Source: PVC group bacterium
GTDB taxonomy: Bacteria > Omnitrophota > Gorgyraeia > B26-G9
Direction of reading: 5' to 3'
DNA: 64,000 bases
NCBI GenBank assembly: GCA_024231215.1
Contig: JAAEQR010000003.1
Coordinates: forward strand, 22,660 to 86,659
The notes below the pieces were generated by a model. It was given only the letters and a program-made list of their open reading frames with translations, did not search any database and was not told the DNA's origin. Positions 15,176 through 49,475 of this stretch are shown here, piece after piece. The stretch's first letter is position 1, and each line of letters begins with the position of its first letter. Both the position numbers and the translations under genes were made by a program.

Positions 15176-15204
15176 TTGCAAATAAATAAAAACTAGTGTA
15201 TACT
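15176..15204 (+). promoter_or_regulatory. sigma70-type promoter: TTGCAA, 17-nt spacer, TATACT (within TGTATACTTTA)
   Basis: The hexamers and spacing are read directly. It lies upstream of the 15252 gene. Confidence 0.5.
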
Positions 15205-29568: not shown

Positions 29569-29892
29569 TTCATGTATCGCATTTTTTCTGGAAAGTTTTT
29601 AGCCAATTCAATGCTTCTTCTTCTGCAGTAAACATTAAATCAGACCAATATATCAAGATGTAACTTAGTATATACTGATGATTGTATCATAAGATATAAT
29701 TGGGTGCAATATTATTTCATATAGAGTTAAATATTAATATAATCTTAAAAAATCTTATAAACTTAGTAAAATTGAATTGGGCGTTACGATCAACAAAAGA
29801 AAGGTTGAAAGTTTTCAGTAAATGAAGTAACATATAAAAATAACTCTTATTTGTTCTTAGTTGCCGGGAAAAAAGGAAAATCTGACGATATA

Positions 29893-33020: not shown

Positions 33021-34271
33021 ATGACTGGATATGAAATGCGAAAAATATTAAAAATAACCGGATGTATTTTCCTGTTAGCGGGAGTTTTATGTAATGCGCA
33101 AATTGGGGTTTCTCAAGAAGCGTGTTCTAATAATTTACTATCTCCGCGGCTTTCATTACAGCAGGAACATTTTCTTAGGATTTTTTCTGCAGATAAAATT
33201 CCGGCTATTAGACGGACTACGGATAGTAAAACTACTTATTTACCTGCGGATTATAGTTTGGAGGTAAAGGAAATACTTGTCCAGGTGAATTATTGGGGAA
33301 CTATGGAATATGTGATAGACGAAATACATCAAAAACTTCCGCAAGATATTGCGATGGTTATCATTTTTAATGAACGCATTAAGCCGTATTTAGATTATGC
33401 TAAAAACAAGTTATCTTCTCGAAAAGTAAGATTTATAATGTCTGAAAAAATCAGCGTTTGGGCAAGAGATAATTATATCTATTCTTTTTCTAAAAACAAA
33501 CCGATAATGGTGTTTCCAGACGGAGAGTTGCTGCGTAATATGATAGAATTGACGACAGATAAAAGAGCTATCTATAAACTCGCGAAGAAGTTGAAAATAA
33601 AAATAAAACAGGCAAAGTTTCATTTTACCGCGGGTGATATTATGACGGATGAAGAAAATATATTTGTCGGTGCGGCTACTATGCAGGATAACTTTAATAG
33701 ATATAAAATGTCTTGGAAGGAAACGTCTAAAAAAATGCAGGCTTTATTTGGAAATCCGATAGAAGTTCTGCAATTAGATGTAAATGATATTGATAATGTG
33801 CTTACTCTTTTACCGGGCAAGCGGGCAGTATTGGGTAATAATGAGCAGTTTGATAGTTTTTTAAAGGGCCATTATCATGAAAAAGTTGGTGACATTAAAA
33901 AACGTTTACTGGAGTTAGGATATGCGGTTATTGATATCCCCTGGCGGCCGCATGAAATTGATCATGGCCATGCTGATACGACTACGCTGATCTCTTATAA
34001 TAATGTTGTCTTTTTAGACCGTGATAGAATACTTTTGCCTCAGTATGGAATACCGGCAGATAAGGAAGCCATAATGACTTGGGAGCAATTAGGCTATAAG
34101 GTTATCCCGGTTCAGGCATTTTGTAACGGGGAGCATGGCGGAAGTATTCGTTGTTTTACGAATATTATCAACGCTGATTTTATTAATTATGATTCCGAAG
34201 ATTCTTCTAGAATATTCTGTCCCTCAGTTTCTCTTCAGCCGTTAGAACAATTGATTGAAATGGCTATATAA
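33021..34271 (+). CDS. exported amidinotransferase-superfamily enzyme, agmatine deiminase / Porphyromonas-type peptidylarginine deiminase-like
   Basis: It has a signal peptide, and the C-terminal catalytic motif GEHGGSIRCFTN matches the GGG-x-(H/R)-C-x-T Cys-nucleophile signature of the family. Confidence 0.5.
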   Translation: MTGYEMRKILKITGCIFLLAGVLCNAQIGVSQEACSNNLLSPRLSLQQEHFLRIFSADKIPAIRRTTDSKTTYLPADYSLEVKEILVQVNYWGTMEYVIDEIHQKLPQDIAMVIIFNERIKPYLDYAKNKLSSRKVRFIMSEKISVWARDNYIYSFSKNKPIMVFPDGELLRNMIELTTDKRAIYKLAKKLKIKIKQAKFHFTAGDIMTDEENIFVGAATMQDNFNRYKMSWKETSKKMQALFGNPIEVLQLDVNDIDNVLTLLPGKRAVLGNNEQFDSFLKGHYHEKVGDIKKRLLELGYAVIDIPWRPHEIDHGHADTTTLISYNNVVFLDRDRILLPQYGIPADKEAIMTWEQLGYKVIPVQAFCNGEHGGSIRCFTNIINADFINYDSEDSSRIFCPSVSLQPLEQLIEMAI

Positions 34272-37400: not shown

Positions 37401-38723
37401 ATTGTATATGTGAATATGGTGGGAAAATCGTTTGGCCTGAGAAAAATAGAGGTTGTGAATGTTTTGGCTAAACATGGTTTTGAATATGTAAAGATACAAG
37501 ATGCCAGCACATTGGTATTTGCCAAAAAGGACGTGATGAGAAGGATCGGAGCGGAATTTTTGAAAACAGCTTTAGAAAAATCCGGCACTTCCTGGGAGAA
37601 GATGACCGAGACTTTAAATAAGATCACAGAACATTTTGAAAAAATGCTGGTCGAGGTAACGCTGAGCACAGGGAACGGCAGGACACGTAAAATGTTTATC
37701 CCGGATCCGAGAGAAATTGCCGATGATCAGGTTATGTATAAGCTTTACCGGATTATCGCCATGTACAAGGCACAGGGATTAGTTTTGGAAAATCCCCAAA
37801 CCCGTCTGGTGGTTGATGTAAAAGGAGCGGACGGACAAGTCAGACCAGTTACAGCAAACGAATTGGCCTTAGTTATGAATAAATATTTTGACATTGTAGT
37901 ACCCATGCCGGAGGAGGGAAGTACGCCGGTGAAATCCAGGATTAGTCAGGGGGAGGTAAGGATACTGGAAGCTACCGGACAGCTTAATGAACTTTGGGAA
38001 CAAGGGGTTAAATCTTTAGTTTCGATCAACCTTGGTTCGCAGATCAGAGTGATTGTTGCGGAATTGCTCAAAGATGAAAAAATCGGAACAATTCGGGTAA
38101 CCTCTTATCCGACAGAATTAGGGCGTGACCTGATTGATTTTAGCTCCGAGGCCGGGAAATCGGTAGAAAGTTTGATCAGTGATCAGGCAATATTGGAGGC
38201 GGCGGAAGAGATGGGCTTACTGGAAACGATTGCGCGAGAGTTTAATATGGATAAGGAGAGCGTAACCCCTGAGCATATCGGACTGATCGCTGCCGGGCGA
38301 AATCCTTTTAATCAGGAGCAAGAGTTATACCAGCCTGTAGAGGTTAAAAAGTCGACGATGCATATGGGCAGTAAATATTTTGGCGGAGACACCGGGTCTA
38401 AGCTTGAGCGATTAGAGGCTGTGGCCCAGGAGTTATGGAAAAAGATAGATCGCAAAATAGCGGATTTTATCATCAAGCTGGATGCGGATAGAGCTGCGGA
38501 ACCGGGAAAGACCTCTTATCATCTTAGCGGAGAAACAATGACTTTGGATATCGCTAAGTTAAGAACGGAAAATTTGCGCCGGTTTCTTGAAGAGAAAAAG
38601 GCTGAGCATATCGAATTTTCCTGCGGGGAAGACCCCCTATCGGGAAACGCAATAATCGACCATGATTTAGAGCGGTCTTCTGAGATTACCGAACCTGCTT
38701 TGTTGGTTGAAATGGCGATTTAG
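34458..38723 (+). CDS. leader-family protein 1 (1421 aa): signal peptide, K/E-rich coiled-coil region, internal block of transmembrane helices, C-terminal globular region
   Basis: The leader reads …IILIQAFLLIDISWA|CGG…NYLAPSLIINH. The coiled coil spans aa ~90-420, and 6-8 hydrophobic helices lie at aa ~690-950. Confidence 0.7.
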   Translation: MISVLSRNFFFRTTAIILIQAFLLIDISWACGGRLNDIDDSKVFEDNYLAPSLIINHSDFSSYFSSPEDITANQFSSLSSAEIETLTYKLGLTLTNEKQAAREIEEIKKEQFKIMDQFSEGLENKEQREKALNQVVRDTNKAIDTLRADFVVQERAKAELKIKAEELKIEAEIAKLKLGKERRENFAKEAQQAYDQEIAKLIKEIKDAAKSKKRKAEEEYKERVSKIEECVSKIKEGLLEGIYISDSLAQDIEKIKQDTNARIQKIAADMRTEKGFLSDTVRGIIIGVFKIAWYWPKGKIAVLKIELSTHEGYDLSKSRSRFKAEVKEINKSAKAEIEAVRDGKDKRTHKLKEELDQAGLNIEKDKTRLEQLESDKKKQPETIRQEVENAIKEAQKDAALKILSGLQGDEYVELRLKALETVLPLVKLYEDRQSEGQMDMRIESREESIAALFLRAYREGLSAISITDAKQLPSPEAAKAQQIVNRHIKRSRKKNEDKRKPLKYIPGIELVVSLDGEKVPVIIYLPENSRNLANDKTVQDLLARRRPFMLQELAHILYVYNGKIALADAHKSLKAAQIFFERMAEFVIKGRIPLRSVLGVVYYEGTKQKSDEPDSPEKQKLMEYIARLCVHHPVYKQSELFFLPGTNFSGSVDLEKENMLGSGADRHPHETSYRDRILKAVNYKSGLWEKIVYEYEGFLKNVYIWGLMITAGVTIVGTHSLILAGLFAVMFYYLIATYPGSKKSALKQQVQVIPQADIASEEMMKYKDWKFDPAKIPQPKPESEKSASKWGKVMETAGNIFDKLDILENLFYRATAGTKYFAGSLREHLNKNKITNNFFRNDLKPWQKWTFFISSLTISGVLAGWLAGSAWLGIKIGALVWGIAIALKIFVYITDWDMVLLLFGFAGSGIAGWFLGKDYPWQGAFIGLTGWTGFLNRKGIISFFRDRIRKEIDFYKRFRMLGPKAVFIRKTLKLQQDMAKGIVYVNMVGKSFGLRKIEVVNVLAKHGFEYVKIQDASTLVFAKKDVMRRIGAEFLKTALEKSGTSWEKMTETLNKITEHFEKMLVEVTLSTGNGRTRKMFIPDPREIADDQVMYKLYRIIAMYKAQGLVLENPQTRLVVDVKGADGQVRPVTANELALVMNKYFDIVVPMPEEGSTPVKSRISQGEVRILEATGQLNELWEQGVKSLVSINLGSQIRVIVAELLKDEKIGTIRVTSYPTELGRDLIDFSSEAGKSVESLISDQAILEAAEEMGLLETIAREFNMDKESVTPEHIGLIAAGRNPFNQEQELYQPVEVKKSTMHMGSKYFGGDTGSKLERLEAVAQELWKKIDRKIADFIIKLDADRAAEPGKTSYHLSGETMTLDIAKLRTENLRRFLEEKKAEHIEFSCGEDPLSGNAIIDHDLERSSEITEPALLVEMAI

Positions 38724-38770: not shown

Positions 38771-38806
38771 CCTTGACGAAGTATGCCTTATATGGTATAC
38801 TTTACT
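38771..38806 (+). promoter_or_regulatory. family promoter cassette, copy B: CCTTGACG, 13-nt spacer, ATATGGTATACTTTAC
   Basis: The -35 is at 38773-38778 and the -10 TATACT at 38797-38802. Confidence 0.7.
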
Positions 38807-38861: not shown

Positions 38862-41800
38862 ATGGGTATCAATAAGAAATACCTATATCTAAGAATTATT
38901 GCATGTATTCTAATACAGGCGGTTTTGTTTGGTAACAGCGGCTTGATCGGAGTAGTGCGCGCAGAAAACTTCCTGTCGCCGGTTTTAGAAATAAATAATA
39001 AGCTGGTTAAGACTTCGTTTGAAACTCCTCAGGTAAAAAGTCGTCGTTTTGTTCATAATCTGGATGATTTATCAAAACTTTCCCGCCGCAAAAGAGATGA
39101 TCTCGAAATAAATGTTCTTAAAAGAATTAGAAATATTAATCTCAAAGGTTTTAATTTTTTATCAAGGGAGGAGCAGGAGAATTTCATTTTTGTTGATTTG
39201 GACTTTGCGGAGTATGTGTTAAAGACTATCTTTACCGATAAGATTAAAGAGGACATGTCTCAGAAGAACGTATCTTATGAAATCATAACAAGGATTATAG
39301 TAGACATGTTTATTCTTTTAAACAAGGTGTTAGAACAACAAGAAGGACAGGATAATACCTATATCGCATGCACTAATTATACTTTTTCTAAAGATAGAAA
39401 AGGACAGACATATGTACTCACGGTTAATTTTGAGAAAAAAGGAGTGGAAGCTAAAATATCAAAATTTATAGCCGAAGAAATTGATGCAGAAATGCCGAAT
39501 ATTGTCTCAGTGTCCGGGCCGATAGAAAAAATCACTGGAAATAAAAGTATAGATGTTAGTTTTTACGGGGTTTCAAAAAATAACAAAGTGCTTACCCCAT
39601 CGGAAATAACCCGAGCAGTGAAGAAGCTGCCGCCGAACGCAGAGAATATAGATATTTCGGAATTAAGAATTGCGCATAAAAGATTACTTAATTTGGCCAG
39701 AGATCGTTACGAAAAACAGGATATTTTAAAAGAAATAACCCCAGCCATAGAGAGGAAAATAAAAACAGGTATTGTTGCGGAAGGGACATCTTCTTTTACC
39801 CCGATTACTGAGAAGGCTTTTGTGGGAAAGATTATTTGCGCGGAAGTGGTAGAAAAAGAGAAAAAGCCGACATATCCTTTAGTTTCATATTATTCGGAAA
39901 CATTGAGGAAAGATCTGAGATTATTAGATAATGCTATAAATACGGCTATGTATAAGTATGAAGGTATAGATATTAATACGGTTCATCATTTTTTGCAGGA
40001 TGCCTTTGCGTTTGCAAGACATGATTCTCGGGAAACACGCAAGGCTCCGACAGCTCAATTTTTATCGCATCTTATGGATGAGCGGAAGGCAGTGCGGGTT
40101 AGAATTCGAAAGGAATTATTGGAGATTATTACATATACGCCGATGTTAAATAAAGACAATGAGCCAAGAGAGATTTCGGAAATCATGGAGGAAGAGCTAG
40201 CTGAGTTAGCGGAACTGCAAGATTACGAAGACAATATGTATATCTGGGGAGAACTGAACAGGCTTAATCAAGAGGATTTGCTATGGGATAACATCATGTC
40301 TCAAGCAAATGAAATTGTGGGTAATATATATCAATATATAGAAGGAGTGGACCCTGAACCTAAAAATGAAAAAGAGCAGATGGCTTTAGATGCGATTGAA
40401 AATGCGAGGAAGGCAGTCCCAACAGATACTCAAATTGGGTCTATGGTCGATACTGTATTACAAGATCTGCCGCGGCAGTTATTTGCCTGGTTAAGAAAAT
40501 ATGATTGTTCTTTACATGAGGCGTTTTTTCGGTCTATGCAACCTATTGTAGACCAGTTAGTTCAAGCTCAAGAACATACGTCGCAAATGAAAGGAGGGCT
40601 TTCTTTAAATCTCCATACCGAACTTTGTACTTTTGTGGATACTGTATTGTTGGAACTGGGAGAGTATGAATCGCGGCATGTAGTGGTACATAATGACTCG
40701 GAGAAGGAGCCATTTATATTATATGTGCCGGGAGACCTAGGAGGGCCGGAGGAATATTTGCGTTTTCGGCGTCTTTATCCGAATATGGTAGGGATTGTAG
40801 TTAAAGAAGGAGCTAAACATTATGCGGTAATGGCCGGAGATCACGGATTCCCGGTGATTAATAAAATTGATTTAATTGAAATGAGCGAAGGAAAATTGCC
40901 GTTAGAGCTGGTGTTAAAAAAGAAAACTAATGGAATTATGCGTATTAGCAGGGGAGGGAAAGCGTTTTTATATATAAACCCTTCATTGAGGGATACCCTT
41001 GAGGCGGAAACTATTATAAAAACAGCGCAGGCAATTAAAATATTGTGTGAAGCTAATATAGATTTAGAAGGAGAAGATGGGAAATTAAAGACGTATGATG
41101 GAGTAGAAGCGCCTGAGATAATGATGAATTTGGATATTGCCGAAGATGCGGAAGACTTGCCGAGCCGGGTAATACGGAAAATAGGTCTTTATCGTACAGA
41201 ATATGAGTATGAACGTCATGGAGAGTTAACAGAAGAAGCATGGTATAAAATTTTTAAGAAAATTGTTAAAGATTCAGAGGGCGATTTTATCGCTGTACGT
41301 TTACCGGATAGAAAAGTATCCGGAGAAGGTGGGGATATAAAAAATCCTAAAGCTTTTGGAAAAAGTAATCTTGAAGGACTTGATTTTTTGCTTGATGAAA
41401 GAGCTAAGGGCAGGCGAATCTCAACGATAATATTAAGGGCCCTTATGAGAGTATATGCAGAAGACGGAGTCGTAGGTGCTCTTTTTCCCATGGTTTCGCA
41501 AGAAAGAGCCGAAGGAATAATCGACTTTGTCGAAGAAATAAAAGAGAATTTAATCTTTGAACAAAAAAATAAAAATAAGCGGGAAGCTTTGGAAGAGGCG
41601 TTAGACAGCTTTTCCGTGGGAGCGATGTTTGAAACTCCTCAGGCTTTTGAATTTAAAAAAGAGCTTATGGAGATTTTTGATTTTGTAAGTTGGGGGAGTA
41701 ATGACTGGAAGATGGCTTCTTCCGGGAAGTCAAGAGGTGCTCAGGGAACGACCAAAGAATTGATTTCATTTACGCCTGAGGTTGTAAAAACCGCATTAGC

Positions 41801-42191
41801 GGCAGGTAAGATGAGCAGGAAGAAGGAAGTACCTTTTTCTATCTGTGGTAAGCTTGCGTCTACCCCTGAATTCATTCTATTTTCACTATATGCAAAGTCG
41901 TTGTCGCTTTTTGATATCCGACTAAGCGTTGGTAAAGATTCTATAGCGTACGTCAAAGAATTTATTCGCCATGTCGATACTAGACGCATTAAAGATATCT
42001 TTAATGATTATCGAAAAGGTTATGATCAGAATAAATTTGATGAGAAAATAGCAGATGAAATAGAAAACATAGTGCTTTCTATGGGAGAATTAGCCAAGCC
42101 TTTTCTACAGGGACAAGTTAAGATGTCGTTACAGAAGAAAAGGGGGCAGGCATCGAAGGCTCCTGTGTTAGTGCATGAGTATGCAATATAA
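38862..42191 (+). CDS. leader-family protein 2 (1109 aa): signal peptide plus a C-terminal divergent PEP-utilizing-enzyme module (phosphohistidine swivel domain and PEP-binding TIM barrel)
   Basis: The leader reads …ILIQAVLF…VVRA|ENFLSPVLEINN. The His-domain reads MVGIVVKEGAKHYAVMAGDHGFPVI. The TIM barrel carries GLYRTEYEY, FPMVSQ, FETPQA and DFVSWGSNDW… and CGKLASTPEF. Confidence 0.65.
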   Translation: MGINKKYLYLRIIACILIQAVLFGNSGLIGVVRAENFLSPVLEINNKLVKTSFETPQVKSRRFVHNLDDLSKLSRRKRDDLEINVLKRIRNINLKGFNFLSREEQENFIFVDLDFAEYVLKTIFTDKIKEDMSQKNVSYEIITRIIVDMFILLNKVLEQQEGQDNTYIACTNYTFSKDRKGQTYVLTVNFEKKGVEAKISKFIAEEIDAEMPNIVSVSGPIEKITGNKSIDVSFYGVSKNNKVLTPSEITRAVKKLPPNAENIDISELRIAHKRLLNLARDRYEKQDILKEITPAIERKIKTGIVAEGTSSFTPITEKAFVGKIICAEVVEKEKKPTYPLVSYYSETLRKDLRLLDNAINTAMYKYEGIDINTVHHFLQDAFAFARHDSRETRKAPTAQFLSHLMDERKAVRVRIRKELLEIITYTPMLNKDNEPREISEIMEEELAELAELQDYEDNMYIWGELNRLNQEDLLWDNIMSQANEIVGNIYQYIEGVDPEPKNEKEQMALDAIENARKAVPTDTQIGSMVDTVLQDLPRQLFAWLRKYDCSLHEAFFRSMQPIVDQLVQAQEHTSQMKGGLSLNLHTELCTFVDTVLLELGEYESRHVVVHNDSEKEPFILYVPGDLGGPEEYLRFRRLYPNMVGIVVKEGAKHYAVMAGDHGFPVINKIDLIEMSEGKLPLELVLKKKTNGIMRISRGGKAFLYINPSLRDTLEAETIIKTAQAIKILCEANIDLEGEDGKLKTYDGVEAPEIMMNLDIAEDAEDLPSRVIRKIGLYRTEYEYERHGELTEEAWYKIFKKIVKDSEGDFIAVRLPDRKVSGEGGDIKNPKAFGKSNLEGLDFLLDERAKGRRISTIILRALMRVYAEDGVVGALFPMVSQERAEGIIDFVEEIKENLIFEQKNKNKREALEEALDSFSVGAMFETPQAFEFKKELMEIFDFVSWGSNDWKMASSGKSRGAQGTTKELISFTPEVVKTALAAGKMSRKKEVPFSICGKLASTPEFILFSLYAKSLSLFDIRLSVGKDSIAYVKEFIRHVDTRRIKDIFNDYRKGYDQNKFDEKIADEIENIVLSMGELAKPFLQGQVKMSLQKKRGQASKAPVLVHEYAI

Positions 42192-42202
42192 AAGAGGATA
42201 TT

Positions 42203-44296
42203 ATGGGATTTTCTGGTAAAAAAAGATCGGGCAAATCAATATCTTCACGAATTATCACCCTGATAATTCTACAGATCTTTTTTGTCTCAGGATTGTTGTC
42301 CCTAGGCAATAGCTTTGCTGCGGATACTCACCAAACCTGCCTTTCTCCCCGTGTAAATATATCTAATGCGCTAGTCAAAAATTCTTTTAGTACCTTTAAA
42401 AAGCTTAATTTAAATGATTTGTTTGAAGGATTTGCAGAGGGTATTCTAGACATCGATAAGGTAGATCACTGGTTAGTTGGTCGCAATGAATCTATCGCTT
42501 ATGAGTTTAAAACAGATTTAGTTCCTAAAATTGTACAACAACCCAATGCAAAATGGTTTTTAGAACAAATACTTGCAGAAGATAAACTTAAGCCATTACA
42601 TTTTGAAGCCCAAGCTGTTCTTTTGCAGATACGTTTTAAAGAGCTTGGATATCCTAACCATAACCCAGCCTGGAGACATTTTATATCTTCGATGAAAGAA
42701 GGGCTTCAATTCCTGGAAAACCCTGAAAACTTAGAGAATAAGGATGTAGTTATCGGCACTTGTCATGTGGCTGCGGATTCGGATTCTGTGGCTGCGGCAA
42801 TTACGTGGTATGAACGGGAAAGAATGTTAGCAGAGAATCGAGGAAAGGTTTTTATTCCTTTGATCTCTAATGAGGACAGGGATATAAATCTTGAAACAGA
42901 GAGACAATTGCATATTTGTGGGATAATAGCAGAGGATCTGATATACGCTTTTCCTAGTAAAGAGATGGAGAAAAGAGGCGAGGTTAAAAGCCTGATACAG
43001 CAGAAACTTGAGGCTATTGCTAAAACAAAATATAAGAGTAGAATAAAAATTGATTTGCTCGATCATAATGCGGTACAGGTTGACTGGTTAAAACCTTTTA
43101 AAGTACGTAAGATATATGATCATCATAACCCGGAAGTGGATATGCCGGAATTGGCCCCGGGAAATGATTATGTCCGCATTGAAGCCTCCACGACAACCAT
43201 AATTGCTCAGGAAAACATGAAAGATCGTATTTTCCATAGATCATTTCCACAGATAAAGTTTTTGACTATGGCTACCTTGCTTTCAGATACAGACTGTTTA
43301 AATTCAGATATTACACAGCAAGAAACTCTCGGGATTTTATCTCGGATGGCAAAGGATATGGGTTTTTTAAAAAAAGTGCAGTTAAATGGCGGCATAGGCT
43401 CTAGTGGTAAGATTGATTTTGAAAAAATGGAACGCTATTTTGAAATCATAGTTGATAGGGTTTATCTGAACCGGCATTCTTATGTAGAGGAATGGCTGAG
43501 GGATTGTAAGACATATAATGGGTTTGAATTCGGCCAGTCAAAAGTTATATCTTGGGAAGAGTTGTCTGAGAAAAAAGAAATGGAATTAATCGAAGGCATG
43601 AGAAATAAACTTAATGAAAACGATGACAATGAAGCTATTGTTTGGATGGTATCTTCAATGAATCCGTCTGAGTATGGCAGTAAATTTTATGCAATATGTA
43701 AAGATGACCCAGATGGGGCTAAGGCAGAACAGATTATTAGCCAGGTGATGTATCAAAGTCCGGTAAGGATCGGGCTGGTGCGGTCGATATATGTGAATCC
43801 GGCAATACATGCGTACCAGAAAGACTCTCCGGTGAATCCAGTGAGAGTTTTGAATAGAGCTTATAGACAATTTGATCTTAATCTGGATAGATCAACCAAG
43901 AAACAGATGATGGAAAAGATAAGCAATTTGATACAAGATTATGGAAGTAGATTGAAAAGGGATTTGGTTTATAGATATTATTCGTATGAAATAACCAGTG
44001 ATATAATTGAATTTCTGGAGTCAAAAGGCATATCCTGGATACATGCGGAAGTAATGAAGCCGGAAAAAATATATATCGAGGAAATAGGATTAAAAAACGA
44101 AAGAACGCGCAGGGTTCAAATGCCTGGATTTGCTTCCCGGAAGAATATAAAAAATGAGGTTGAAGGCGCAGTCGCGGAAATCATCAGAATAAATAAAGCT
44201 GAGAGGACATTGCGTTTGAACCTCCGCAATGAAATTATGGGCGCTGATGCTGCTTTTGGAATTCAAGCAAAAGAGTTAGTCTTACAGGCTATTTGA
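42203..44296 (+). CDS. leader-family protein 3 (697 aa): signal peptide plus a DHH-family phosphoesterase-like domain
   Basis: The leader reads …LILQIFFVSGLLSLGNSFA|ADTHQTCLSPRVNISN. DHH motif I is GTCHVAADSDSVAAA and motif III is IYDHHNP. It sits 11 nt after protein 2 and is likely co-transcribed with it. Confidence 0.55.
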   Translation: MGFSGKKRSGKSISSRIITLIILQIFFVSGLLSLGNSFAADTHQTCLSPRVNISNALVKNSFSTFKKLNLNDLFEGFAEGILDIDKVDHWLVGRNESIAYEFKTDLVPKIVQQPNAKWFLEQILAEDKLKPLHFEAQAVLLQIRFKELGYPNHNPAWRHFISSMKEGLQFLENPENLENKDVVIGTCHVAADSDSVAAAITWYERERMLAENRGKVFIPLISNEDRDINLETERQLHICGIIAEDLIYAFPSKEMEKRGEVKSLIQQKLEAIAKTKYKSRIKIDLLDHNAVQVDWLKPFKVRKIYDHHNPEVDMPELAPGNDYVRIEASTTTIIAQENMKDRIFHRSFPQIKFLTMATLLSDTDCLNSDITQQETLGILSRMAKDMGFLKKVQLNGGIGSSGKIDFEKMERYFEIIVDRVYLNRHSYVEEWLRDCKTYNGFEFGQSKVISWEELSEKKEMELIEGMRNKLNENDDNEAIVWMVSSMNPSEYGSKFYAICKDDPDGAKAEQIISQVMYQSPVRIGLVRSIYVNPAIHAYQKDSPVNPVRVLNRAYRQFDLNLDRSTKKQMMEKISNLIQDYGSRLKRDLVYRYYSYEITSDIIEFLESKGISWIHAEVMKPEKIYIEEIGLKNERTRRVQMPGFASRKNIKNEVEGAVAEIIRINKAERTLRLNLRNEIMGADAAFGIQAKELVLQAI

Positions 44297-44377: not shown

Positions 44378-44413
44378 CCTTGACAGGTTGTATTTCATAT
44401 GGTATACTTTACC
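44378..44413 (+). promoter_or_regulatory. family promoter cassette, copy C: CCTTGACA, 13-nt spacer, ATATGGTATACTTTAC
   Basis: The -35 is at 44380-44385 and the -10 TATACT at 44403-44408. A GC-rich hairpin, GGGCCG…CGGCCC, at 44437-44456 lies in the 5'UTR. Confidence 0.7.
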
Positions 44414-44480
44414 GCTTTTATAATAATTAATGTAGGGGCCGCGCTCGGCTCGGCCCGAATAGTCTATAGAAGAGGTAAAT

Positions 44481-46349
44481 ATGCTATCCAAACGAATAAT
44501 AAAAGTTGTTGCAGTTGTTATTATCCAGATGTTTTTATTTATGGATTTTGCCTGGGCAGCGGATTGTCTAAGTCCTTCTTTGAATTTTAGCGGAACTCAA
44601 TTTTCCTCTCATTACAATATTATTTCTGAGGCAATTAAGATTTTTGAAGAATTAGAAGGAGCTCAGGAACAATTTGTTATCAAATCAGGTGATAATTATT
44701 TTTACGTTTATAATCCTAATAATGCTTCAAAAACATTATTAACAAATGCAGAAGTTATTATTAATAATGAAGACGTAGCAGTTGCTTTATTGGGTGATTT
44801 TAAATACCAGAAGACAGAAAAGAAGCTAGTAGAGCCGGTGAAAAATGTAAATATTATTACGGATTTATATTCAGTTCAGCAATGGCGTTCAATATTTGAA
44901 ATGATTATTCACGGGGTTGGTCCGAATAAACCAGGATATTCTCGGGACTATATCCCGCATGTCAAACGATGGTTTAGGCTTCTTTTTAAACAGATAACTG
45001 GGGTAGAGCCTCCAGCTGAAGCTGTTTATTTTTTCGAGGCAGTATATGCGGATGTTGTTACTAGCCGGGTTAATCCTATGGTAAAAAAATACAATAAAGA
45101 AGAAGAGCGTTATGGGGTGCGTGAAATAGAATTAACTCAAAAGGCGATAGGTAATTTTGCGGCAACGCCCTACGCATACATGGATGCAGGTGTTAGAGAA
45201 GAGATGTATAAAAAATTAGATGCGGTTTTAGCAGAGATAGTAGAGATAGCTCTAGCTCAAGGAGCGACTGGCGATTGGCCGACAGCATTAAATGCAATAA
45301 TGCACAGCCAGGGAACGGTCACCGGAACTGAATGGATCCAGGACCGATTAGAAAAAGGAATGTGGCCGGATGTATTGCAGACAGATAAAATAATATTAAT
45401 TGGTGGGGTGTTATGGCTCAAATCAATTCTTAGAAGCAGACCTTTAAGTGATCCTTTAAGAGTTCAAAAATTTGGAGGAATGATTGTAAATATTAAAGAC
45501 CCGCAAGATGCAATTGGAAGATTTTTAAGGCTATTGAGCCCTGAATTTGCGGATGCGATATTTGCTGATGGGTATCTTAATGTGGGAAGTTTTTTAAACC
45601 CATTATCACATACAATTGCTTCTCATACTAAGTATTGGAATAGTCGTAGAATCGCTAAAATCAAGGCAATGATGCTTGTATTTAGCGCATTAAGGCAGAA
45701 TCCCGCGTGGTTAACCAAATACGGACGCAAGTCTTTAGATATTAATGCAGCAGAAACTGAATTCAGAAGAGATCTTCTAAAATTACTTAGAAGTGACTTA
45801 TCCTCCTTGCCCCAGCATGATCCGGAACTTATTGGGCCGGGGTATAAATTTGTGTCTAATGATGAGAATGAGGCTACGGGAGGTATCTTTGTTTTAAATG
45901 AAGCGGCTGAAAAAATTGGATTTTATGCGGACAATAAAACAGTTGCTGCAAATAATGATATCATTGAGCCGATCAAAGCAAAAGTTAAATTTACAAAAAA
46001 TCTTACAGCTAAAGTAGAAGAGTTAAATAAAATCACTCCGGATAGAGCAAATAACCAGGGGTATATGATGATTAATTCTTTGAATCAGGAAGCGGCGAAT
46101 CAAATTAGAGACAAAATTAAAGAAATCAGTTTATTTGTAGAACAGTTTCAGGGTGCAGATACACGGGAGCTTGCTGTACGGATTAAGGAAGTGCAGGATT
46201 TAGCTAGACAGAATATGGACATTTCTAAATTAGATGAAATTAAAGTAAAAATGCAGAATTTGCTTAGTACTACTATAAAGTCAATTGAAGTTTGTAAGCC
46301 TGCTTCAGGGCAGAGTTCAATTATTGCTGCAATCAGTATATCAATATAA
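44481..46349 (+). CDS. leader-family protein 4 (622 aa), function unknown
   Basis: The leader reads …VVIIQMFLFMDFAWA|ADCLSPSLNFSG. The 5' end has a nucleotide-level resemblance to the neighbouring gene at 46364. Confidence 0.65.
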   Translation: MLSKRIIKVVAVVIIQMFLFMDFAWAADCLSPSLNFSGTQFSSHYNIISEAIKIFEELEGAQEQFVIKSGDNYFYVYNPNNASKTLLTNAEVIINNEDVAVALLGDFKYQKTEKKLVEPVKNVNIITDLYSVQQWRSIFEMIIHGVGPNKPGYSRDYIPHVKRWFRLLFKQITGVEPPAEAVYFFEAVYADVVTSRVNPMVKKYNKEEERYGVREIELTQKAIGNFAATPYAYMDAGVREEMYKKLDAVLAEIVEIALAQGATGDWPTALNAIMHSQGTVTGTEWIQDRLEKGMWPDVLQTDKIILIGGVLWLKSILRSRPLSDPLRVQKFGGMIVNIKDPQDAIGRFLRLLSPEFADAIFADGYLNVGSFLNPLSHTIASHTKYWNSRRIAKIKAMMLVFSALRQNPAWLTKYGRKSLDINAAETEFRRDLLKLLRSDLSSLPQHDPELIGPGYKFVSNDENEATGGIFVLNEAAEKIGFYADNKTVAANNDIIEPIKAKVKFTKNLTAKVEELNKITPDRANNQGYMMINSLNQEAANQIRDKIKEISLFVEQFQGADTRELAVRIKEVQDLARQNMDISKLDEIKVKMQNLLSTTIKSIEVCKPASGQSSIIAAISISI

Positions 46350-46363
46350 AGGAAGGTAAAAAT

Positions 46364-49183
46364 ATGTTATCTAAGAGATTCGTAAAAATTATTTCAATTG
46401 TAATCATTCAGGCATTTTTGGTTTTGGACTTTGCCTGGGCCATGGGGCCTGATGCCAGATTTTTTGATGCCGGAGCACAGGAATATCTTGCTCCGACATT
46501 AACTATTAACAGCGCGCCGATTCAGGCAACTTTGCAAAATATGATGGCGCGTGAGAAATCACTTCAGGATGTTATTGATTTTGGCAAAGAAGAAAAAACA
46601 GAATTCTTTGCCGGGTTATCTAAAGAAGAAAAAATAAAACAGCTTGAACAATGGATGGCTGCGTCTTTTGAAGGCGGCGGACCCAAAGGCGCTTATGAAG
46701 CAGGGATTGGACAACTGTTTATGGAGTCATGGATGCATTTGAAAAACCAGGGCAAGGAAGATGTTACCGGGTTTGATGTTATCGGGGGTAACTCCGCAGG
46801 TGCAATTAATGCTTTGTTTTTTAGTTTAGCAATAATGTATGATCCGACTTTTGTTAAATATAATGAAATTACCTGGGTAAAACATTTAAATTTAAAGAAT
46901 TTATTAGAACCGGGCCAAAATTATAATCCTAAGAACGCAGTTTTTTCCAGCCAAATAATAGATCGCGCAATAAAAGCCATAGAGCAAAAGTTGGAAGAGT
47001 GTAAGAATAACGACAAGACTCTTTCTTATGCTCCGGAAGAGATAAGAGTTGTTTTTTCAGTAACCAATCTTAGTGGAACTCCTTATTGGGATGAAGTGAA
47101 GAATCTTCTGGATGGTAAAAAAGGTATTAGATATGACCACCAGGGGAAAATCCATTTTACAATTAAAAAGAAAGACCGCTACAGTCCTGAGACTATGGAA
47201 ATGCTTACATTGATGATGAAAGTTGCGGTAGCTTCAGCATCAATTCCAATTGTTTTTGAAGCGCGAAAAATAGCTCAGTCAGTTAGAGCTTATCCTGGCA
47301 GCATTTTGGCAAACATGGCTGTGAAAGCCGGGAAATGGCTTACCGAAAAAATCACATCAATTTTTGTCGATGGAATGCTTGTAGACAACAAGGCGATAAA
47401 AACAGTAGCAAAGCTAGCTAGGAAGAAGGATATTGAAGAGGGAATGCTGAACAGCAATTTGCGCAATAGATTGCAAGTGGCTATTTCACCGAATGTAATA
47501 GATGATACCGAAGGAGAAAGATTTGATAAACAGGATATCCCTTCTGTTGCTATGAAGAGCCTTAGTGCGGTTATGGCGCAAGTTCTTTATCAGAATGAAA
47601 AGATTGATGAGATAAATAAGAAAAACACGCTGATTACGCATTTCATACAGGATATACAGAAACAGGCTGAAAAAGTAAAGCGTTATAAATGGAGTAAGAA
47701 GCGACTAAAGCAGGAGATTGATGAGTTATTATTCGGATCAAGTTACAGTCTTATTAAACGCAAAAGTGAAAATAGAGCCAAAAGACACATTCTAAAGGAA
47801 ACAGGAAAAGAAGTGGAATATGAAGCGACCAAGGATGAAGTAGCCTGGTATATAAAAAGAAATAAAGAACGTGTAATCAGGCAGCGTTTGCTGGCCAACG
47901 GAATTATTACCGAAGCACAGCTTAACAGTCAGGATGAACGGGATAAATTGTTTATTGATTACTTGGCACTTTTTACGTTTGTCGAGGAATGCGGTCGTGA
48001 TTTAAGAGGCAGGGAAGAAGTATACGTACATCAGATTGCGCCAACTAAGCATCCTTTGGCATCTGATCTCTTGCTCGGGTTTTTGAGTGAGGATGTCAGG
48101 CAGGCTGATTTTAATCAGGGATATGAAGATGCACGATTGGCATTGGAGGCGCTTTTAGGTGTGGATCTTTCTGGTTTGCGCCGGCAGGAATCGGTTCAGC
48201 AGACGGAAGGTTATCAGTTTGCTTATAGCAATGTTTCTTTGACAGAAAGAAAAGAAATAGTAAATATGCTTATTGCCAGAGCAAAACTTATTGTTAAAAC
48301 TATCTTAAGCAAAAAACATTCGTCCTTGGTGGGTAAAATATTCGCTCAGCCGGGGATTGTGGGAAGAAATATTCTGCTTAGTGGTGCTTTAATATTTGTT
48401 AAAAAAATGCTGGCAAAACAATTTCATATTCCTCAGGATGAAAAAAATGCTAAAGCAAGAAGAGTCGAGTCTTTAAAGCTAAATATGCGTAATAATATTT
48501 TATATAAAGAGAATGAACTTTATAATTTAAAGGAAACAAAAGCAAGGCTGGAGCAAATAGCTAATTCTAAGAAGCCGGTTGCAGTTATTGTAGGTAGTGA
48601 TTTAGAAACTTCATTTGAGGCAATGTCTGTGATTAGTAGGTATAGAAAAGATATTACTATTCTTAAAGCACCACATGGAGAGACCCCTGGACAAGCTTTG
48701 CGAACAAGTTATACAAAAGGAAAAGAGACTATTGATTTACATAAATCTACCCAATATAACAGAGATGTTATTTTAAAAACTTTTATTTTAAATTCAGGAA
48801 TTTTAATTAGTACTAAAAAGATGCTGGATAAATATTCTCGAATTGGAGGTAATTACAAAATTACAGAATTGGGGGAAAAAGCAGAAGCCGAGTGGGCAAC
48901 AATTATTAATAATAAAGAACATATAATTATATTGGGAGAGACCCCGGAACAATTAAAACCGATATTAAAGGATAAGGATGTATTAGAAATAGAGACAGCA
49001 AAGCATAGGAAGGCTTTGAATAGAAAAATCCCCTTTGTCGGCAGGAATGTTTGGGAGAAATATTTTGGCAAAGATAAGCAAGCTAAAACACGTAATTTAC
49101 TGGACCTTCGTTATGTACCTAGTTTTGGTGGATATAAACAACCATTGATGATGCATAATAATCTGGTGAATATAGCAATTTAA
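46364..49183 (+). CDS. leader-family protein 5 (939 aa): signal peptide plus a patatin-like phospholipase domain (ExoU/VipD-type)
   Basis: The leader reads …IVIIQAFLVLDFAWA|MGP…EYLAPTLTINS. The patatin blocks are GGGPKGAYEAG (oxyanion hole), GGNSAGA (GxSxG) and FVDGMLVDN (catalytic Asp). Confidence 0.65.
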   Translation: MLSKRFVKIISIVIIQAFLVLDFAWAMGPDARFFDAGAQEYLAPTLTINSAPIQATLQNMMAREKSLQDVIDFGKEEKTEFFAGLSKEEKIKQLEQWMAASFEGGGPKGAYEAGIGQLFMESWMHLKNQGKEDVTGFDVIGGNSAGAINALFFSLAIMYDPTFVKYNEITWVKHLNLKNLLEPGQNYNPKNAVFSSQIIDRAIKAIEQKLEECKNNDKTLSYAPEEIRVVFSVTNLSGTPYWDEVKNLLDGKKGIRYDHQGKIHFTIKKKDRYSPETMEMLTLMMKVAVASASIPIVFEARKIAQSVRAYPGSILANMAVKAGKWLTEKITSIFVDGMLVDNKAIKTVAKLARKKDIEEGMLNSNLRNRLQVAISPNVIDDTEGERFDKQDIPSVAMKSLSAVMAQVLYQNEKIDEINKKNTLITHFIQDIQKQAEKVKRYKWSKKRLKQEIDELLFGSSYSLIKRKSENRAKRHILKETGKEVEYEATKDEVAWYIKRNKERVIRQRLLANGIITEAQLNSQDERDKLFIDYLALFTFVEECGRDLRGREEVYVHQIAPTKHPLASDLLLGFLSEDVRQADFNQGYEDARLALEALLGVDLSGLRRQESVQQTEGYQFAYSNVSLTERKEIVNMLIARAKLIVKTILSKKHSSLVGKIFAQPGIVGRNILLSGALIFVKKMLAKQFHIPQDEKNAKARRVESLKLNMRNNILYKENELYNLKETKARLEQIANSKKPVAVIVGSDLETSFEAMSVISRYRKDITILKAPHGETPGQALRTSYTKGKETIDLHKSTQYNRDVILKTFILNSGILISTKKMLDKYSRIGGNYKITELGEKAEAEWATIINNKEHIIILGETPEQLKPILKDKDVLEIETAKHRKALNRKIPFVGRNVWEKYFGKDKQAKTRNLLDLRYVPSFGGYKQPLMMHNNLVNIAI

Positions 49184-49218: not shown

Positions 49219-49258
49219 CCCCCCTTCCGGGAATATCCGGGAGGGGGTTTTTGTTTTG
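49219..49258 (+). terminator. intrinsic terminator (CCCCCTTCCGGG…CCGGGAGGGGG followed by TTTTTGTTTTG)
   Basis: An 11-12 bp GC stem plus a T-run lies after protein 5. Confidence 0.9.
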
Positions 49259-49413: not shown

Positions 49414-49475
49414 CGATTTTATTTATCATTTTTTAGCAACTTTTTAAAGTGTATTTAAGAAAGAAGGAGTTTTTT

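What the first reader, a model, noticed from the sequence alone, without database searches (positions are those of the whole stretch)
42203..44296. Leader-family protein 3 carries a DHH phosphoesterase-like domain behind a secretion signal
Motif I reads CHVAADSDSVAAA (compare H-x-x-PDxDxxGS) and motif III reads IYDHHNP, separated by ~95 aa as in the NrnA, RecJ and GdpP catalytic cores. No GGGH/DHHA1 motif is evident. A secreted DHH enzyme could degrade nucleic acids, nanoRNA or cyclic dinucleotides outside the producer, or in a target cell. It sits 11 nt after the PEP-enzyme-like protein 2 and is probably translationally linked to it.
Basis: partly seen in the sequence, partly recalled or inferred. 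Interest (0 to 1): 0.6.

Follow-up and report, generated by a model that had tools for sequence, protein, structure and literature searches.

The report
Exported pyrophosphatase-like DHH enzyme, Omnitrophota
The gene encodes a real but very divergent DHH-family phosphatase with an intact metal-binding site, closest to pyrophosphatases and polyphosphatases rather than to nucleases. It carries an export leader and a short end-tag shared by a co-regulated set of effector-like proteins in Omnitrophota, a phylum of suspected bacterial predators.

Summary
The ORF (42203-44296, 697 aa) and both quoted motifs are real. All four DHH motifs are present: H188-x3-D192-x-D194, D287-H-N, D306-H-H and D362.

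Homology to the DHH family is significant:
- Pfam DHH: E 1.2e-4, below the family cut-off.
- NCBIfam Mn-pyrophosphatase: E 2.6e-7.
- Only two relatives among 1.84 billion proteins, both passing Pfam DHH.

Profile searches against solved structures hit only family II pyrophosphatases and yeast exopolyphosphatase. One alignment runs on into the DHHA2 domain. There is no GGGH/DHHA1 motif. So the NrnA/RecJ/GdpP nuclease reading is not favoured; a phosphoanhydride hydrolase (PPi or polyP type) is.

The N-terminus has the form of a Sec signal peptide. It belongs to a signature I could not find described:
- a conserved leader (..IIQAFL..D.AWA);
- a box L-[SA]-P-x-L-x-I;
- a C-terminal tail L-[VI]-x-Q-[AS]-I.

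This signature occurs on 11 ORFs in the window and 37 more in 18 of 27 retrieved loci, nearly all labelled Omnitrophota. Cargo domains include Fic, patatin, GGDEF, glycosyltransferase and a PEP-utilising enzyme. All family operons in the window share an exact promoter element, TATGGTATACTT.

The target is the second gene of a two-gene operon behind the PEP-utilising protein. Export, substrate and a role as an effector are inferred, not shown.

The parts
38773..38802 (+). Promoter-like site of the two-gene operon (TTGACG, 17 nt, TATACT), containing the family-specific element TATGGTATACTT
   Evidence: 10 of 12 matches with TG; the exact 12-mer is found only upstream of leader-family genes.
38862..42191 (+). 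Upstream operon partner: leader-family protein of 1109 aa with a PEP-utilizers_C domain
   Evidence: PF02896, E 2.2e-23. (PtsI and PEP synthase models). (leader and ...VHEYAI tail).
42192..42202 (+). 11-nt intergenic spacer AAGAGGATATT, with a Shine-Dalgarno-like AAGAGG directly after the upstream stop codon
42203..44296 (+). Target ORF, 697 aa (NCBI MCP4648505.1, annotated as hypothetical protein, PVC group bacterium)
42203..42322 (+). Sec-type signal-peptide-like leader, aa 1-40. The n-region MGFSGKKRSGKSISSR has net charge +6; the h-region is IITLIILQIFFVSGLLSLG with the family's conserved Gln; the c-region is NSFA|A.
   Evidence: Read by inspection only; no signal-peptide predictor was available.
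42341..42388 (+). Family N-box LSPRVNISNALVKNSF (consensus T-L-[SA]-P-x-[LIV]-x-[IL]-[ND]-x3-h-Q-x2-[FY])
42389..42742 (+). N-terminal extension, aa 63-180, predicted helical, with no detectable homologue
   Evidence: low-confidence models.
42743..43387 (+). DHH catalytic domain, aa ~181-395
42761..42799 (+). DHH motif I, CHVAADSDSVAAA (H188, D192, D194)
43055..43075 (+). DHH motif II, LLDHNAV (D287)
43112..43132 (+). DHH motif III, IYDHHNP (D306, H307, H308)
43277..43297 (+). DHH motif IV, LLSDTDC (D362)
43475..43927 (+). DHHA2-like domain, aa ~425-575. The first half is supported; the second half is tentative. It contains R433-D434-x-K436 (nt 43496-43516) and R563-STKKQ (nt 43886-43906).
   Evidence: a single alignment to PDB 2eb0, chain 58-255, i-E 2.3e-9; the SRK motif of P0005 aligns here. 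Pfam DHHA2 and hhalign found nothing.
43928..44275 (+). C-terminal extension, aa 576-691, function unknown, partly shared with the Omnitrophota relative P0002
44276..44293 (+). Family C-terminal tail LVLQAI (consensus L-[VI]-[EG]-Q-[AS]-I-COOH), followed by the TGA stop

Best explanation
The gene encodes an exported, metal-dependent phosphoesterase of the DHH/DHHA2 branch, the branch that holds family II inorganic pyrophosphatase, exopolyphosphatase PPX1 and prune. The claims rest on different footings.

Shown by sequence:
- All four DHH motifs with the canonical His/Asp ligands are intact.
- The DxK motif that opens the DHHA2 domain follows at the expected place.

Inferred:
- The enzyme binds two divalent cations (Mn2+, Co2+ or Mg2+) and hydrolyses a phosphoanhydride such as PPi, short polyphosphate or a nucleoside polyphosphate. 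A nucleic-acid phosphodiester is less likely.
- The protein is made with a Sec-type signal peptide whose sequence is unusually conserved. It also carries a mature N-terminal box (L-S-P-x-V-x-I) and a C-terminal tail (LVLQAI).
- This three-part signature marks a family of otherwise unrelated proteins in Omnitrophota. The family is transcribed from a shared promoter, and its cargo domains use cytoplasmic substrates: PEP, ATP, GTP, NDP-sugars, SAM and phospholipids.
- The most coherent reading is therefore that the target is one of a battery of effectors. They would be exported across the inner membrane by Sec, then sorted by the box and tail to the cell surface or into a prey or host cell. There the enzyme would deplete PPi, polyP or a related phosphoanhydride.
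- It is co-transcribed with the PEP-utilising protein, is probably translationally coupled to it, and may act with it.
For: DHH domain:
- Pfam DHH E 1.2e-4; NCBIfam Mn-pyrophosphatase E 2.6e-7.
- Exhaustive HMMER over 1.84e9 proteins gave only P0002 (1.3e-10) and P0003 (4.6e-6). Both pass the Pfam DHH cut-off, and P0003 also passes DHHA2.
- Columns invariant in all three: D194, D287-H-N, D306-H-H, D362, R433-D434-x-K436. At H188 and D192, P0002 has His and Glu, and P0003 has Asn and Asp.

DHHA2 branch:
- A profile of the two Omnitrophota sequences alone hits only family II pyrophosphatases in the PDB (2eb0 5.3e-11, 1wpn 4.6e-7, 9m0m 8.8e-7). One alignment runs from motif II into DHHA2.
- With P0003 added, yeast PPX1 scores 2.8e-23.
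- There is no GGGH.
- Even a poor model gives family II pyrophosphatases as the top 13 Foldseek hits.

Export:
- A single N-terminal hydrophobic segment.
- The n-region is positive in the family (median +5) against -1 after the h-region, in 46 of 47 members. The consensus h-region is 13 residues, followed by A-W-A|G.

Family:
- 11 ORFs in the window and 37 more in 18 retrieved loci carry both leader/box and tail (48 in all, 47 distinct).
- Codons differ between paralogues, so selection acts on the protein.
- Cargo domains: PAD, PEP-utilizers_C, patatin, TPR, Fic, NTase, GGDEF, GT1, PEMT.

Co-regulation:
- The exact element TATGGTATACTT occurs 6 times, only upstream of family operons.

Operon:
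- 11-nt gap with a Shine-Dalgarno-like element, and no promoter in between.

Lifestyle:
- Omnitrophota are proposed predators or parasites (PMC10066038).
Against: - The Pfam DHH score is below the gathering cut-off.
- Pfam DHHA2 does not hit.
- hhalign of the C-terminal half against a bona fide DHHA2 protein found nothing.
- The second half of DHHA2, with the SRKKQ-type motif, is only tentatively placed (STKKQ 564-568, or ASRK 644-647).
- Both structure predictions were of low confidence (pLDDT 37.6 and 41.3).
- No signal-peptide predictor could be run, and cleavage and secretion are untested.
- 26 of 47 family members have further TM-like segments. These could mean retention in the producer's inner membrane rather than secretion.
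- No secretion machinery recurs next to the family in the flanks examined.
- No orthologue with both ends intact was found, so the leader-plus-DHH combination is seen only once.
- Substrate specificity in this superfamily cannot be read reliably from sequence.
Confidence: 0.55

Rival explanations
1. One reading: a secreted NrnA/RecJ/GdpP-like DHH enzyme that degrades nanoRNA, ssDNA or cyclic dinucleotides.
For: The DHH catalytic core is common to both branches. The A1 profile hits a GdpP c-di-AMP phosphodiesterase weakly (9n0l, E 2.5e-4). NrnA, GAN and RecJ2 appear low in the Foldseek list. Some DHHA2-type proteins, such as prune, have been reported to act on cyclic nucleotides (my own knowledge).
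Against: There is no GGGH/DHHA1 motif. No NrnA, RecJ or GdpP model in NCBIfam reaches E <= 1, while two pyrophosphatase models do. The profile of Omnitrophota sequences alone hits only family II pyrophosphatases, and the alignment enters DHHA2 with its DxK motif. The closest characterised relatives are PPX1 and the pyrophosphatases.
Confidence: 0.15
2. A housekeeping periplasmic or surface pyrophosphatase/exopolyphosphatase that scavenges phosphate for the producer, rather than an effector aimed at another cell.
For: The same DHH/DHHA2 and signal-peptide evidence applies. Extracellular polyP and PPi exist in sediments (my own knowledge).
Against: No Pho, Pst or phosphate-uptake genes lie nearby. 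The gene sits in an array of 10 same-signature genes whose domains (Fic in other loci, patatin, PEP-utilising, PAD) are not nutrient-scavenging types. It shares their dedicated promoter and forms an operon with a PEP-utilising protein. It is extremely rare: two relatives among 1.84e9 proteins.
Confidence: 0.2
3. The leader is an uncleaved membrane anchor or a non-Sec signal, and the catalytic domain works in the producer's own cytoplasm at the membrane, as in the membrane-tethered giant proteins described for Omnitrophota.
For: Cargo domains of the family need cytoplasmic substrates. Many members have extra TM-like segments. The target's h-region is long, at 19 residues. The nearest relative, P0002, is a piece of a larger TM-containing multidomain protein. 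A 2026 preprint reports TM-only and SP+TM topologies as dominant in long Omnitrophota proteins (10.64898/2026.06.07.730766).
Against: Charge distribution follows the positive-inside rule for N-in/C-out in 46 of 47 members. The consensus h-region is only 13 residues and is followed by A-x-A|G, typical of cleaved signal peptides. The target has no second hydrophobic segment to bring the domain back inside.
Confidence: 0.12
4. A catalytically dead DHH-like scaffold, or a chance resemblance.
For: The score is below the Pfam cut-off and the structure models are poor.
Against: All seven canonical ligand positions are retained with near-canonical spacing. They are retained in P0002 apart from a conservative D-to-E change. 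E-values are significant against libraries of 1.84e9 and 1.8e5 sequences.
Confidence: 0.04

Closest known systems
Family II (Mn-dependent) inorganic pyrophosphatase, PpaC (PDB 2eb0, 1k23, 1wpn, 9m0m)
   Same: DHH motifs I-IV with the same ligand pattern: H-x3-D-x-D, D-H-N, D-H-H, S-D-T. The linker and the start of DHHA2 with its DxK motif also match. This is the only family hit by the Omnitrophota-only profile and by NCBIfam.
   Different: PpaC proteins are about 310-aa cytoplasmic enzymes. The target is 697 aa and adds a signal-peptide-like leader, a 120-aa helical N-extension, a ~33-aa insertion between motifs I and II, an expanded or uncertain second half of DHHA2 (STKKQ in place of SRKKQ), a 120-aa C-extension and the family tail. 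Its scores are far below the equivalog cut-offs (30 against 283 bits), so it is not a PpaC orthologue.
Exopolyphosphatase PPX1 / prune subfamily (yeast PPX1, PDB 2qb6; Protostelium P0003/P0005)
   Same: The DHH+DHHA2 architecture. It is the best single-sequence hit outside Omnitrophota (P0003: 29% identity over 216 aa, BLASTP 3e-14; phmmer 4.6e-6). PPX1 is the top PDB hit of the three-sequence profile.
   Different: PPX1 and prune have Asn in place of the first His of motif I, while the target keeps His as pyrophosphatases do. PPX1 and prune are cytosolic eukaryotic proteins with no leader or tail.
MDD4954366.1, 'DHH family phosphoesterase, partial' from a Candidatus Omnitrophota MAG (P0002)
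   Same: The nearest relative: 24-26% identity over about 400 aa, covering DHH, the DHHA2-like part and part of the C-extension. It comes from the same phylum and keeps the same motifs.
   Different: It is cut at both ends on a 2882-bp contig, so its leader and tail cannot be assessed. It continues into a TM segment and a methyltransferase domain that the target lacks.
DHHA1-type DHH enzymes (NrnA, RecJ, GdpP, Pde2)
   Same: The DHH catalytic domain and its metal ligands.
   Different: They have a DHHA1 domain with a GGGH motif, which is absent here. There are no significant profile hits apart from a weak GdpP match from the three-sequence profile.
Sequence-conserved signal peptides and C-terminal sorting tags (YSIRK-G/S and ESPR signal peptides; T9SS C-terminal domain; Dot/Icm C-terminal signal)
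   Same: They work alike in principle: a Sec signal with extra conserved residues, and/or a C-terminal tag shared by unrelated cargo, directs a second sorting step (my own knowledge; PMC11285876 for T9SS, PMC11602083 for two-step T4BSS export of TM effectors).
   Different: No sequence similarity. No Pfam or NCBIfam sorting-signal model hits the family. The tail is only 6 residues, against about 80 for the T9SS C-terminal domain, and it is paired with an N-terminal box. The machinery is unknown.

Membership tests
DHH phosphoesterase superfamily (Pfam PF01368) | Motif I, H/D-x3-D-x-D (metal ligands) | tested here: met
   H188, D192 and D194 in CHVAADSDS.
DHH phosphoesterase superfamily (Pfam PF01368) | Motif II, an Asp (D-H-N in the pyrophosphatase branch) | tested here: met
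   LLD287-H-N. Invariant in A1 and aligned to the DH motif of 2eb0 and 1wpn.
DHH phosphoesterase superfamily (Pfam PF01368) | Motif III, D-H-H | tested here: met
   D306-H307-H308, the only DHH tripeptide in the protein.
DHH phosphoesterase superfamily (Pfam PF01368) | Motif IV, an Asp (xSDT) | tested here: met
   LLSD362TD.
DHH phosphoesterase superfamily (Pfam PF01368) | Score at or above the Pfam gathering cut-off | tested here: not met
   22.8 bits against 28.1 (E 1.2e-4). Homology is nevertheless established through P0002 and P0003, which pass the cut-off, and through PDB profile hits.
DHH phosphoesterase superfamily (Pfam PF01368) | DHH domain fold | tested here: inconclusive
   AlphaFold2 pLDDT 37.6 and 41.3. 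The Foldseek top 13 are family II pyrophosphatases at E 6e-4 to 1e-2, but on a low-confidence model.
DHHA2 branch (family II pyrophosphatase / PPX1 / prune) | A DHHA2 domain following DHH (Pfam PF02833) | tested here: inconclusive
   No Pfam DHHA2 hit at E <= 1 and hhalign was negative. However, one HMMER alignment of the Omnitrophota profile to 2eb0 runs over chain 58-255, about 65 residues into DHHA2 (i-E 2.3e-9).
DHHA2 branch (family II pyrophosphatase / PPX1 / prune) | DxK motif at the start of DHHA2 | tested here: met
   R433-D434-C-K436, invariant in A1 and aligned to 'mDfKnf' of 2eb0.
DHHA2 branch (family II pyrophosphatase / PPX1 / prune) | C-terminal S-R-K-K-Q-type substrate-binding motif | tested here: inconclusive
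   R563-S-T-K-K-Q aligns with ASRKQ of P0005 and LSRKD of P0002 in MAFFT. The alternative is FASRK at 643-647. Neither has statistical support.
Family II inorganic pyrophosphatase (NCBIfam NF003877, equivalog) | Score at or above the equivalog cut-off, with full-length collinearity | tested here: not met
   30.4 bits against 283, and only profile positions 62-173 of 308 matched. The protein is related to PpaC but is not a PpaC orthologue.
Family II inorganic pyrophosphatase (NCBIfam NF003877, equivalog) | Mn2+/Co2+-dependent hydrolysis of PPi | not testable with these tools
   Needs an enzyme assay.
DHHA1 branch (NrnA / RecJ / GdpP) | DHHA1 domain with a GGGH motif | tested here: not met
   No GGGH, GGH, GGxH or GxGH in the protein. 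No NrnA, RecJ or GdpP model in NCBIfam at E <= 1.
Sec (SPase I) signal peptide | Positive n-region, hydrophobic h-region, c-region with small residues at -3 and -1 | tested here: inconclusive
   By inspection the layout is n +6, h 19 aa, S-F-A|A. The family consensus is K-rich n, 13-aa h, A-W-A|G. No predictor or experiment was available.
Omnitrophota leader/box/tail family (not found described) | Hydrophobic leader with a central Gln, an L-[SA]-P-x-h-x-h box and a C-terminal h-h-x-x-[AGS]-[IV] end | tested here: met
   The target has ..LIILQIFF.., LSPRVNI and LVLQAI. 48 ORFs carry both signals out of 196 ORFs of >= 200 aa. 55 have the N-box and 60 the tail, so about 17 would carry both if the two were independent.

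The most novel reading that the evidence does not exclude
The DHH enzyme is one cargo of a previously undescribed protein-sorting system that is widespread in Omnitrophota. A sequence-conserved Sec leader (K-I-I-A-L-V-L-I-Q-A-F-L-L-L-D-x-A-W-A), a mature N-terminal box (T-L-[SA]-P-x-L-x-I-[ND]-x3-h-Q-x2-[FY]) and a six-residue C-terminal tail (L-[VI]-[EG]-Q-[AS]-I-COOH) would together route dozens of unrelated 'cytoplasmic-type' enzymes and TM-hairpin proteins out of the predator and into or onto prey cells. These cargoes include a PPase/PPX-like DHH enzyme, a PEP-utilising enzyme, patatin, Fic, GGDEF, a glycosyltransferase, PAD and NTase. All would be expressed as one regulon from a conserved promoter (TTGnnn-N17-TGGTATACTTTA). 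Within that system, the PEP-utilising protein and the DHH pyrophosphatase-like protein would form a two-enzyme effector pair that drains high-energy phosphate from the prey.
Probability: 0.3. Interest if true: 0.85.

Novelty: new variant of a known kind. Interest (0 to 1): 0.55.

Why it matters
DHH/DHHA2 enzymes (family II pyrophosphatases, PPX1, prune) are known as cytosolic housekeeping enzymes. One that carries an export leader and sits in an effector-like gene array would be an unusual use of the fold. It suggests that uncultured Omnitrophota attack the PPi, polyP or energy-phosphate pool of another cell.

More broadly, the protein gives a concrete handle on a family-wide leader, box and tail signature with its own promoter. 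If these are real sorting and regulatory signals, the secreted arsenal of a whole candidate phylum of nanobacterial predators could be listed directly from genome sequence. That would make the predation hypothesis testable.

The gene is currently annotated as 'hypothetical protein', so the functional assignment is new in itself.

Tried and rejected
Searches that led nowhere:
- Word-indexed homologue searches with the protein, with alignment A1 and with the leader alignment A3 returned only the protein itself, plus one 77-aa leader fragment. They gave no material for a deep alignment.
- The look-up of encoding contigs had no record for the protein.
- A genome-contig scan with the protein found no relative.
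- The metagenome scan with A2 chose patterns from a poorly aligned N-terminal stretch and found nothing.
- Leader alignment A3 was too diverse to yield patterns. The narrower A4 worked.
- phmmer of the single sequence against the PDB gave only noise.

Structure and domain tests:
- Both AlphaFold2 jobs (single sequence and three-sequence alignment) gave low-confidence models. I used the Foldseek result only as weak corroboration.
- hhalign of the C-terminal half against P0005 found nothing.
- Pfam on the C-terminal half found nothing.
- A PDB profile search with the C-terminal half alone gave only a sub-significant hit to 2eb0 (E 0.21).

Context tests:
- No DHH relative occurs in any of the 27 related loci.
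- No gene recurs next to family arrays that could be the sorting machinery.
- PADLOC found no defence-system hit for the target, and the phage database had no match. Defence-system and phage origins are therefore rejected.
- The sigma-54 promoter consensus is not enriched, despite the nearby enhancer-binding protein.
- A DNA-level repeat or cassette explanation for the shared leaders is rejected, because codons differ between paralogues.
- Literature searches found no description of the leader or tail, nor of secreted bacterial DHH/DHHA2 enzymes.
Full report
**Observation**

The ORF at 42203-44296 (+) is real and encodes 697 aa. The gap between motifs I and III is 104 residues rather than about 95. 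The extra length is an insertion between motifs I and II. No GGGH-like string exists. The upstream ORF ends at 42191. The 11-nt spacer reads AAGAGGATATT, with a Shine-Dalgarno-like AAGAGG 5 nt before the ATG.

**Is it a DHH enzyme?**

Pfam DHH matches aa 186-336 at E 1.2e-4, but below the gathering cut-off (22.8 against 28.1 bits). NCBIfam gives the Mn-dependent inorganic pyrophosphatase model at E 2.6e-7 over the stretch from motif II to motif IV. No NrnA, RecJ or GdpP model appears.

An exhaustive HMMER scan of 1.84 billion representative proteins found only two relatives:
- P0002 (E 1.3e-10) is a fragment annotated 'DHH family phosphoesterase, partial' from a Candidatus Omnitrophota MAG.
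- P0003 (E 4.6e-6) is a PPX1/prune-like protein of the amoeba Protostelium.

Both pass the Pfam DHH cut-off by themselves, and P0003 also passes DHHA2.

In the three-way alignment the invariant columns include D194, D287-H288-N289, D306-H307-H308, D362 and R433-D434-x-K436. At H188 and D192, P0002 has His and Glu, and P0003 has Asn and Asp. These are the positions that, from my own knowledge of B. subtilis PpaC, correspond to H9, D13, D15, D75, H97, H98, D149 and K205.

**Which branch of the superfamily?**

A profile built from the two Omnitrophota sequences alone hits only family II pyrophosphatases in the PDB: 2eb0 at 5.3e-11, 1wpn at 4.6e-7, 9m0m at 8.8e-7 and 6ll7 at 5e-4. The 2eb0 alignment is a single stretch over chain residues 58-255. 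It runs through the interdomain linker and about 65 residues into DHHA2, including the DxK motif and the strands that follow. Adding the amoebal sequence makes yeast exopolyphosphatase PPX1 the top hit (2.8e-23), followed by the pyrophosphatases, with one weak GdpP hit.

The second half of DHHA2 is not secured:
- Pfam DHHA2 does not hit.
- hhalign against P0005 found nothing.
- The SRKKQ-type motif is only tentatively placed at R563-STKKQ, or at FASRK 643-647.

Both AlphaFold2 jobs gave poor models (pLDDT 37.6 and 41.3). A Foldseek search on the better one still ranked family II pyrophosphatases as its top 13 hits, which I treat as weak corroboration only.

My conclusion is that this is a divergent DHH enzyme of the DHHA2 (PPase/PPX/prune) branch with an intact catalytic centre. 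It is not a PpaC orthologue (30 against 283 bits) and not an NrnA/RecJ/GdpP-type enzyme. The likely chemistry is metal-dependent hydrolysis of a phosphoanhydride. That is an inference from family membership, not a result.

**The 'secretion signal'**

The protein has one hydrophobic segment, at aa 13-39. It is preceded by a +6 n-region and followed by S-F-A|A. This leader is not generic. Exactly 11 ORFs in the window carry both of these features:
- a related leader followed by an L-[SA]-P-x-h-x-h box;
- a C-terminus of the form h-h-x-x-[AGS]-[IV].

These ORFs start at 15252, 33021, 34458, 38862, 42203, 44481, 46364, 49449/49476, 55089, 56668 and 58097.

Scanning public genomes and metagenomes with the leader retrieved 27 loci. 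Nearly all that carry a taxon label are Candidatus Omnitrophota MAGs. In 18 of them, 37 further ORFs carry both signals. Among 196 ORFs of >= 200 aa, 55 have the box, 60 have the tail and 48 have both.

The consensus is:
- leader: KK..IFKIIALVLIQAFLLLD[IF]AWA|GG;
- a variable linker;
- box: T-L-[SA]-P-x-[LIV]-x-[IL]-[ND]-x3-h-Q-x2-[FY];
- C-terminal tail: L-[VI]-[EG]-Q-[AS]-I-COOH.

A 13-residue h-region, the A-x-A site and the charge asymmetry (median +5 before against -1 after, in 46 of 47 members) fit a cleaved Sec signal peptide. The conserved Gln and Asp, the box and the tail imply a further, specific recognition step. Codons for the conserved residues differ among paralogues, so selection acts on the protein and not on a DNA repeat. 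No Pfam or NCBIfam sorting-signal model matches. I found no description of the signature in the Omnitrophota literature I could search.

**What the family carries and how it is expressed**

Cargo domains are heterogeneous and of a 'cytoplasmic-substrate' type:
- in the window: PAD_porph, PEP-utilizers_C, DHH, patatin and TPR;
- elsewhere: Fic, a nucleotidyltransferase, GGDEF, glycosyltransferase 1, PEMT and HEAT.

26 of 47 members also have internal TM-like segments.

Every family transcription unit in the window is preceded by a near-identical promoter. The exact 12-mer TATGGTATACTT occurs six times in 64 kb, always 42-81 nt upstream of a family ORF and never before the roughly 25 other genes. 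Across all loci, TGGTATACT occurs 23 times, always on the family's coding strand.

The target has no promoter of its own. It is the second gene behind 38862 (promoter at 38773-38802). The next promoter is at 44380-44409, and a strong terminator follows the next operon at 49220-49247.

**Mechanism proposed**

Shown by sequence:
- a DHH catalytic site;
- a leader, box and tail shared with a co-regulated family;
- operon linkage to a PEP-utilising protein.

Inferred:
- Sec export with cleavage near A39 or A40;
- a second sorting step that uses the box and tail;
- action outside the producer's cytoplasm.

Enzymes that need PEP, ATP, GTP, NDP-sugars or PPi/polyP would find no substrate in a periplasm. 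Omnitrophota are proposed epibiotic predators or parasites (PMC10066038; 10.1101/2023.11.21.568195). The most coherent reading is therefore an effector battery delivered to prey, in which this enzyme depletes PPi, polyP or a related phosphoanhydride, possibly together with its PEP-utilising partner.

The rivals are:
- a nuclease or cyclic-dinucleotide phosphodiesterase (disfavoured by the branch assignment);
- a phosphate-scavenging exoenzyme (disfavoured by the genomic context);
- a membrane-tethered cytoplasmic enzyme (disfavoured by the charge rule and the lack of a second TM segment, but not excluded);
- a dead scaffold (disfavoured by the intact ligands).

**Novelty and score**

The domain assignment is a new, divergent member of a known superfamily. 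The export leader and family context make it a new variant. The more striking element is the leader/box/tail signature with its own promoter, which lies beyond the coordinates of this finding and rests on sequence patterns alone. I score the finding itself at 0.55. I give a 0.3 probability to the reading that it belongs to a new sorting system widespread in the phylum, which would deserve about 0.85.

Noticed in passing
window 15252-16244, 33021-34271, 34458-38723, 38862-42191, 42203-44296, 44481-46349, 46364-49183, 49449-55019, 55089-56639, 56668-57936, 58097-60730 (all +); also 18 of loci L001-L027: A family of otherwise unrelated proteins (238-3368 aa) shares a conserved leader (..IIQAFL..D.AWA), an L-[SA]-P-x-h-x-h box and a C-terminal L-[VI]-x-Q-[AS]-I end. 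It comprises 11 ORFs here and 37 more in 18 loci, nearly all labelled Omnitrophota. No Pfam or NCBIfam model matches, and I found no description in the literature searched.
   Followed up: partly
window 32977, 34391, 38791, 44398, 49399, 58032 (+), with a degenerate copy at 15194; 17 further copies of TGGTATACT in the loci: The exact 12-mer TATGGTATACTT (an extended -10 element, TGG-TATACT), about 17 nt after a TTGACA-like hexamer, precedes every leader-family operon and none of the other genes. The same element precedes family genes in other Omnitrophota MAGs, which suggests a regulon conserved across the phylum.
   Followed up: partly
window 40791-40859 (aa 644-666 of ORF 38862-42191): By eye, the PEP-utilising partner has a degenerate phospho-histidine swivel-domain-like stretch, GIVVKEGAKHYAVMAGDHGFPVI (compare GGRTSHxxIMAR of enzyme I), upstream of its PEP-utilizers_C domain. 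Pfam did not call a PEP-utilizers mobile domain. The resemblance is recalled from memory and was not tested.
   Followed up: no
window 34458-38723; 26 of 47 family members overall: Many family members contain internal pairs or bundles of TM-like hydrophobic segments, for example three in the 1421-aa ORF. These recall the TM-hairpin effectors of intracellular bacteria, or inner-membrane retention. A 537-aa orthologue fragment of this ORF exists in ENA (P0007).
   Followed up: partly
window 25925-28153 (+): A 742-aa protein combines patatin, POTRA and Omp85 domains. From my own knowledge this is the architecture of PlpD-like type Vd autotransporter phospholipases. It has an ordinary signal peptide without the family signature.
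   Followed up: no
window 29851-30852 and 31353-32825 (+): A sigma-54 enhancer-binding protein and a TraF_2/PorP-SprF-like outer-membrane beta-barrel lie directly upstream of the main family array. No sigma-54 promoter consensus is enriched, and no homologue recurs next to arrays in other loci.
   Followed up: partly
window 14470-15078 (-): This is the only sizeable ORF on the minus strand. It encodes a DSP-PTPase-type phosphatase (matching polymorphic-toxin-associated PTP families) and lies divergently next to the family member at 15252.
   Followed up: no
window 44435-44456 (+): A GC-rich hairpin-like element, GGGGCCGCGCTCGGCTCGGCCC, sits in the 5' untranslated region of ORF 44481, between its promoter and its Shine-Dalgarno sequence. 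The other family leader regions lack it.
   Followed up: no
window 1-64000: GC skew is strongly positive (+0.13 to +0.32) in every 2-kb window, and all but one of the real genes are on the + strand. This fits a single replichore with extreme co-orientation of genes.
   Followed up: no
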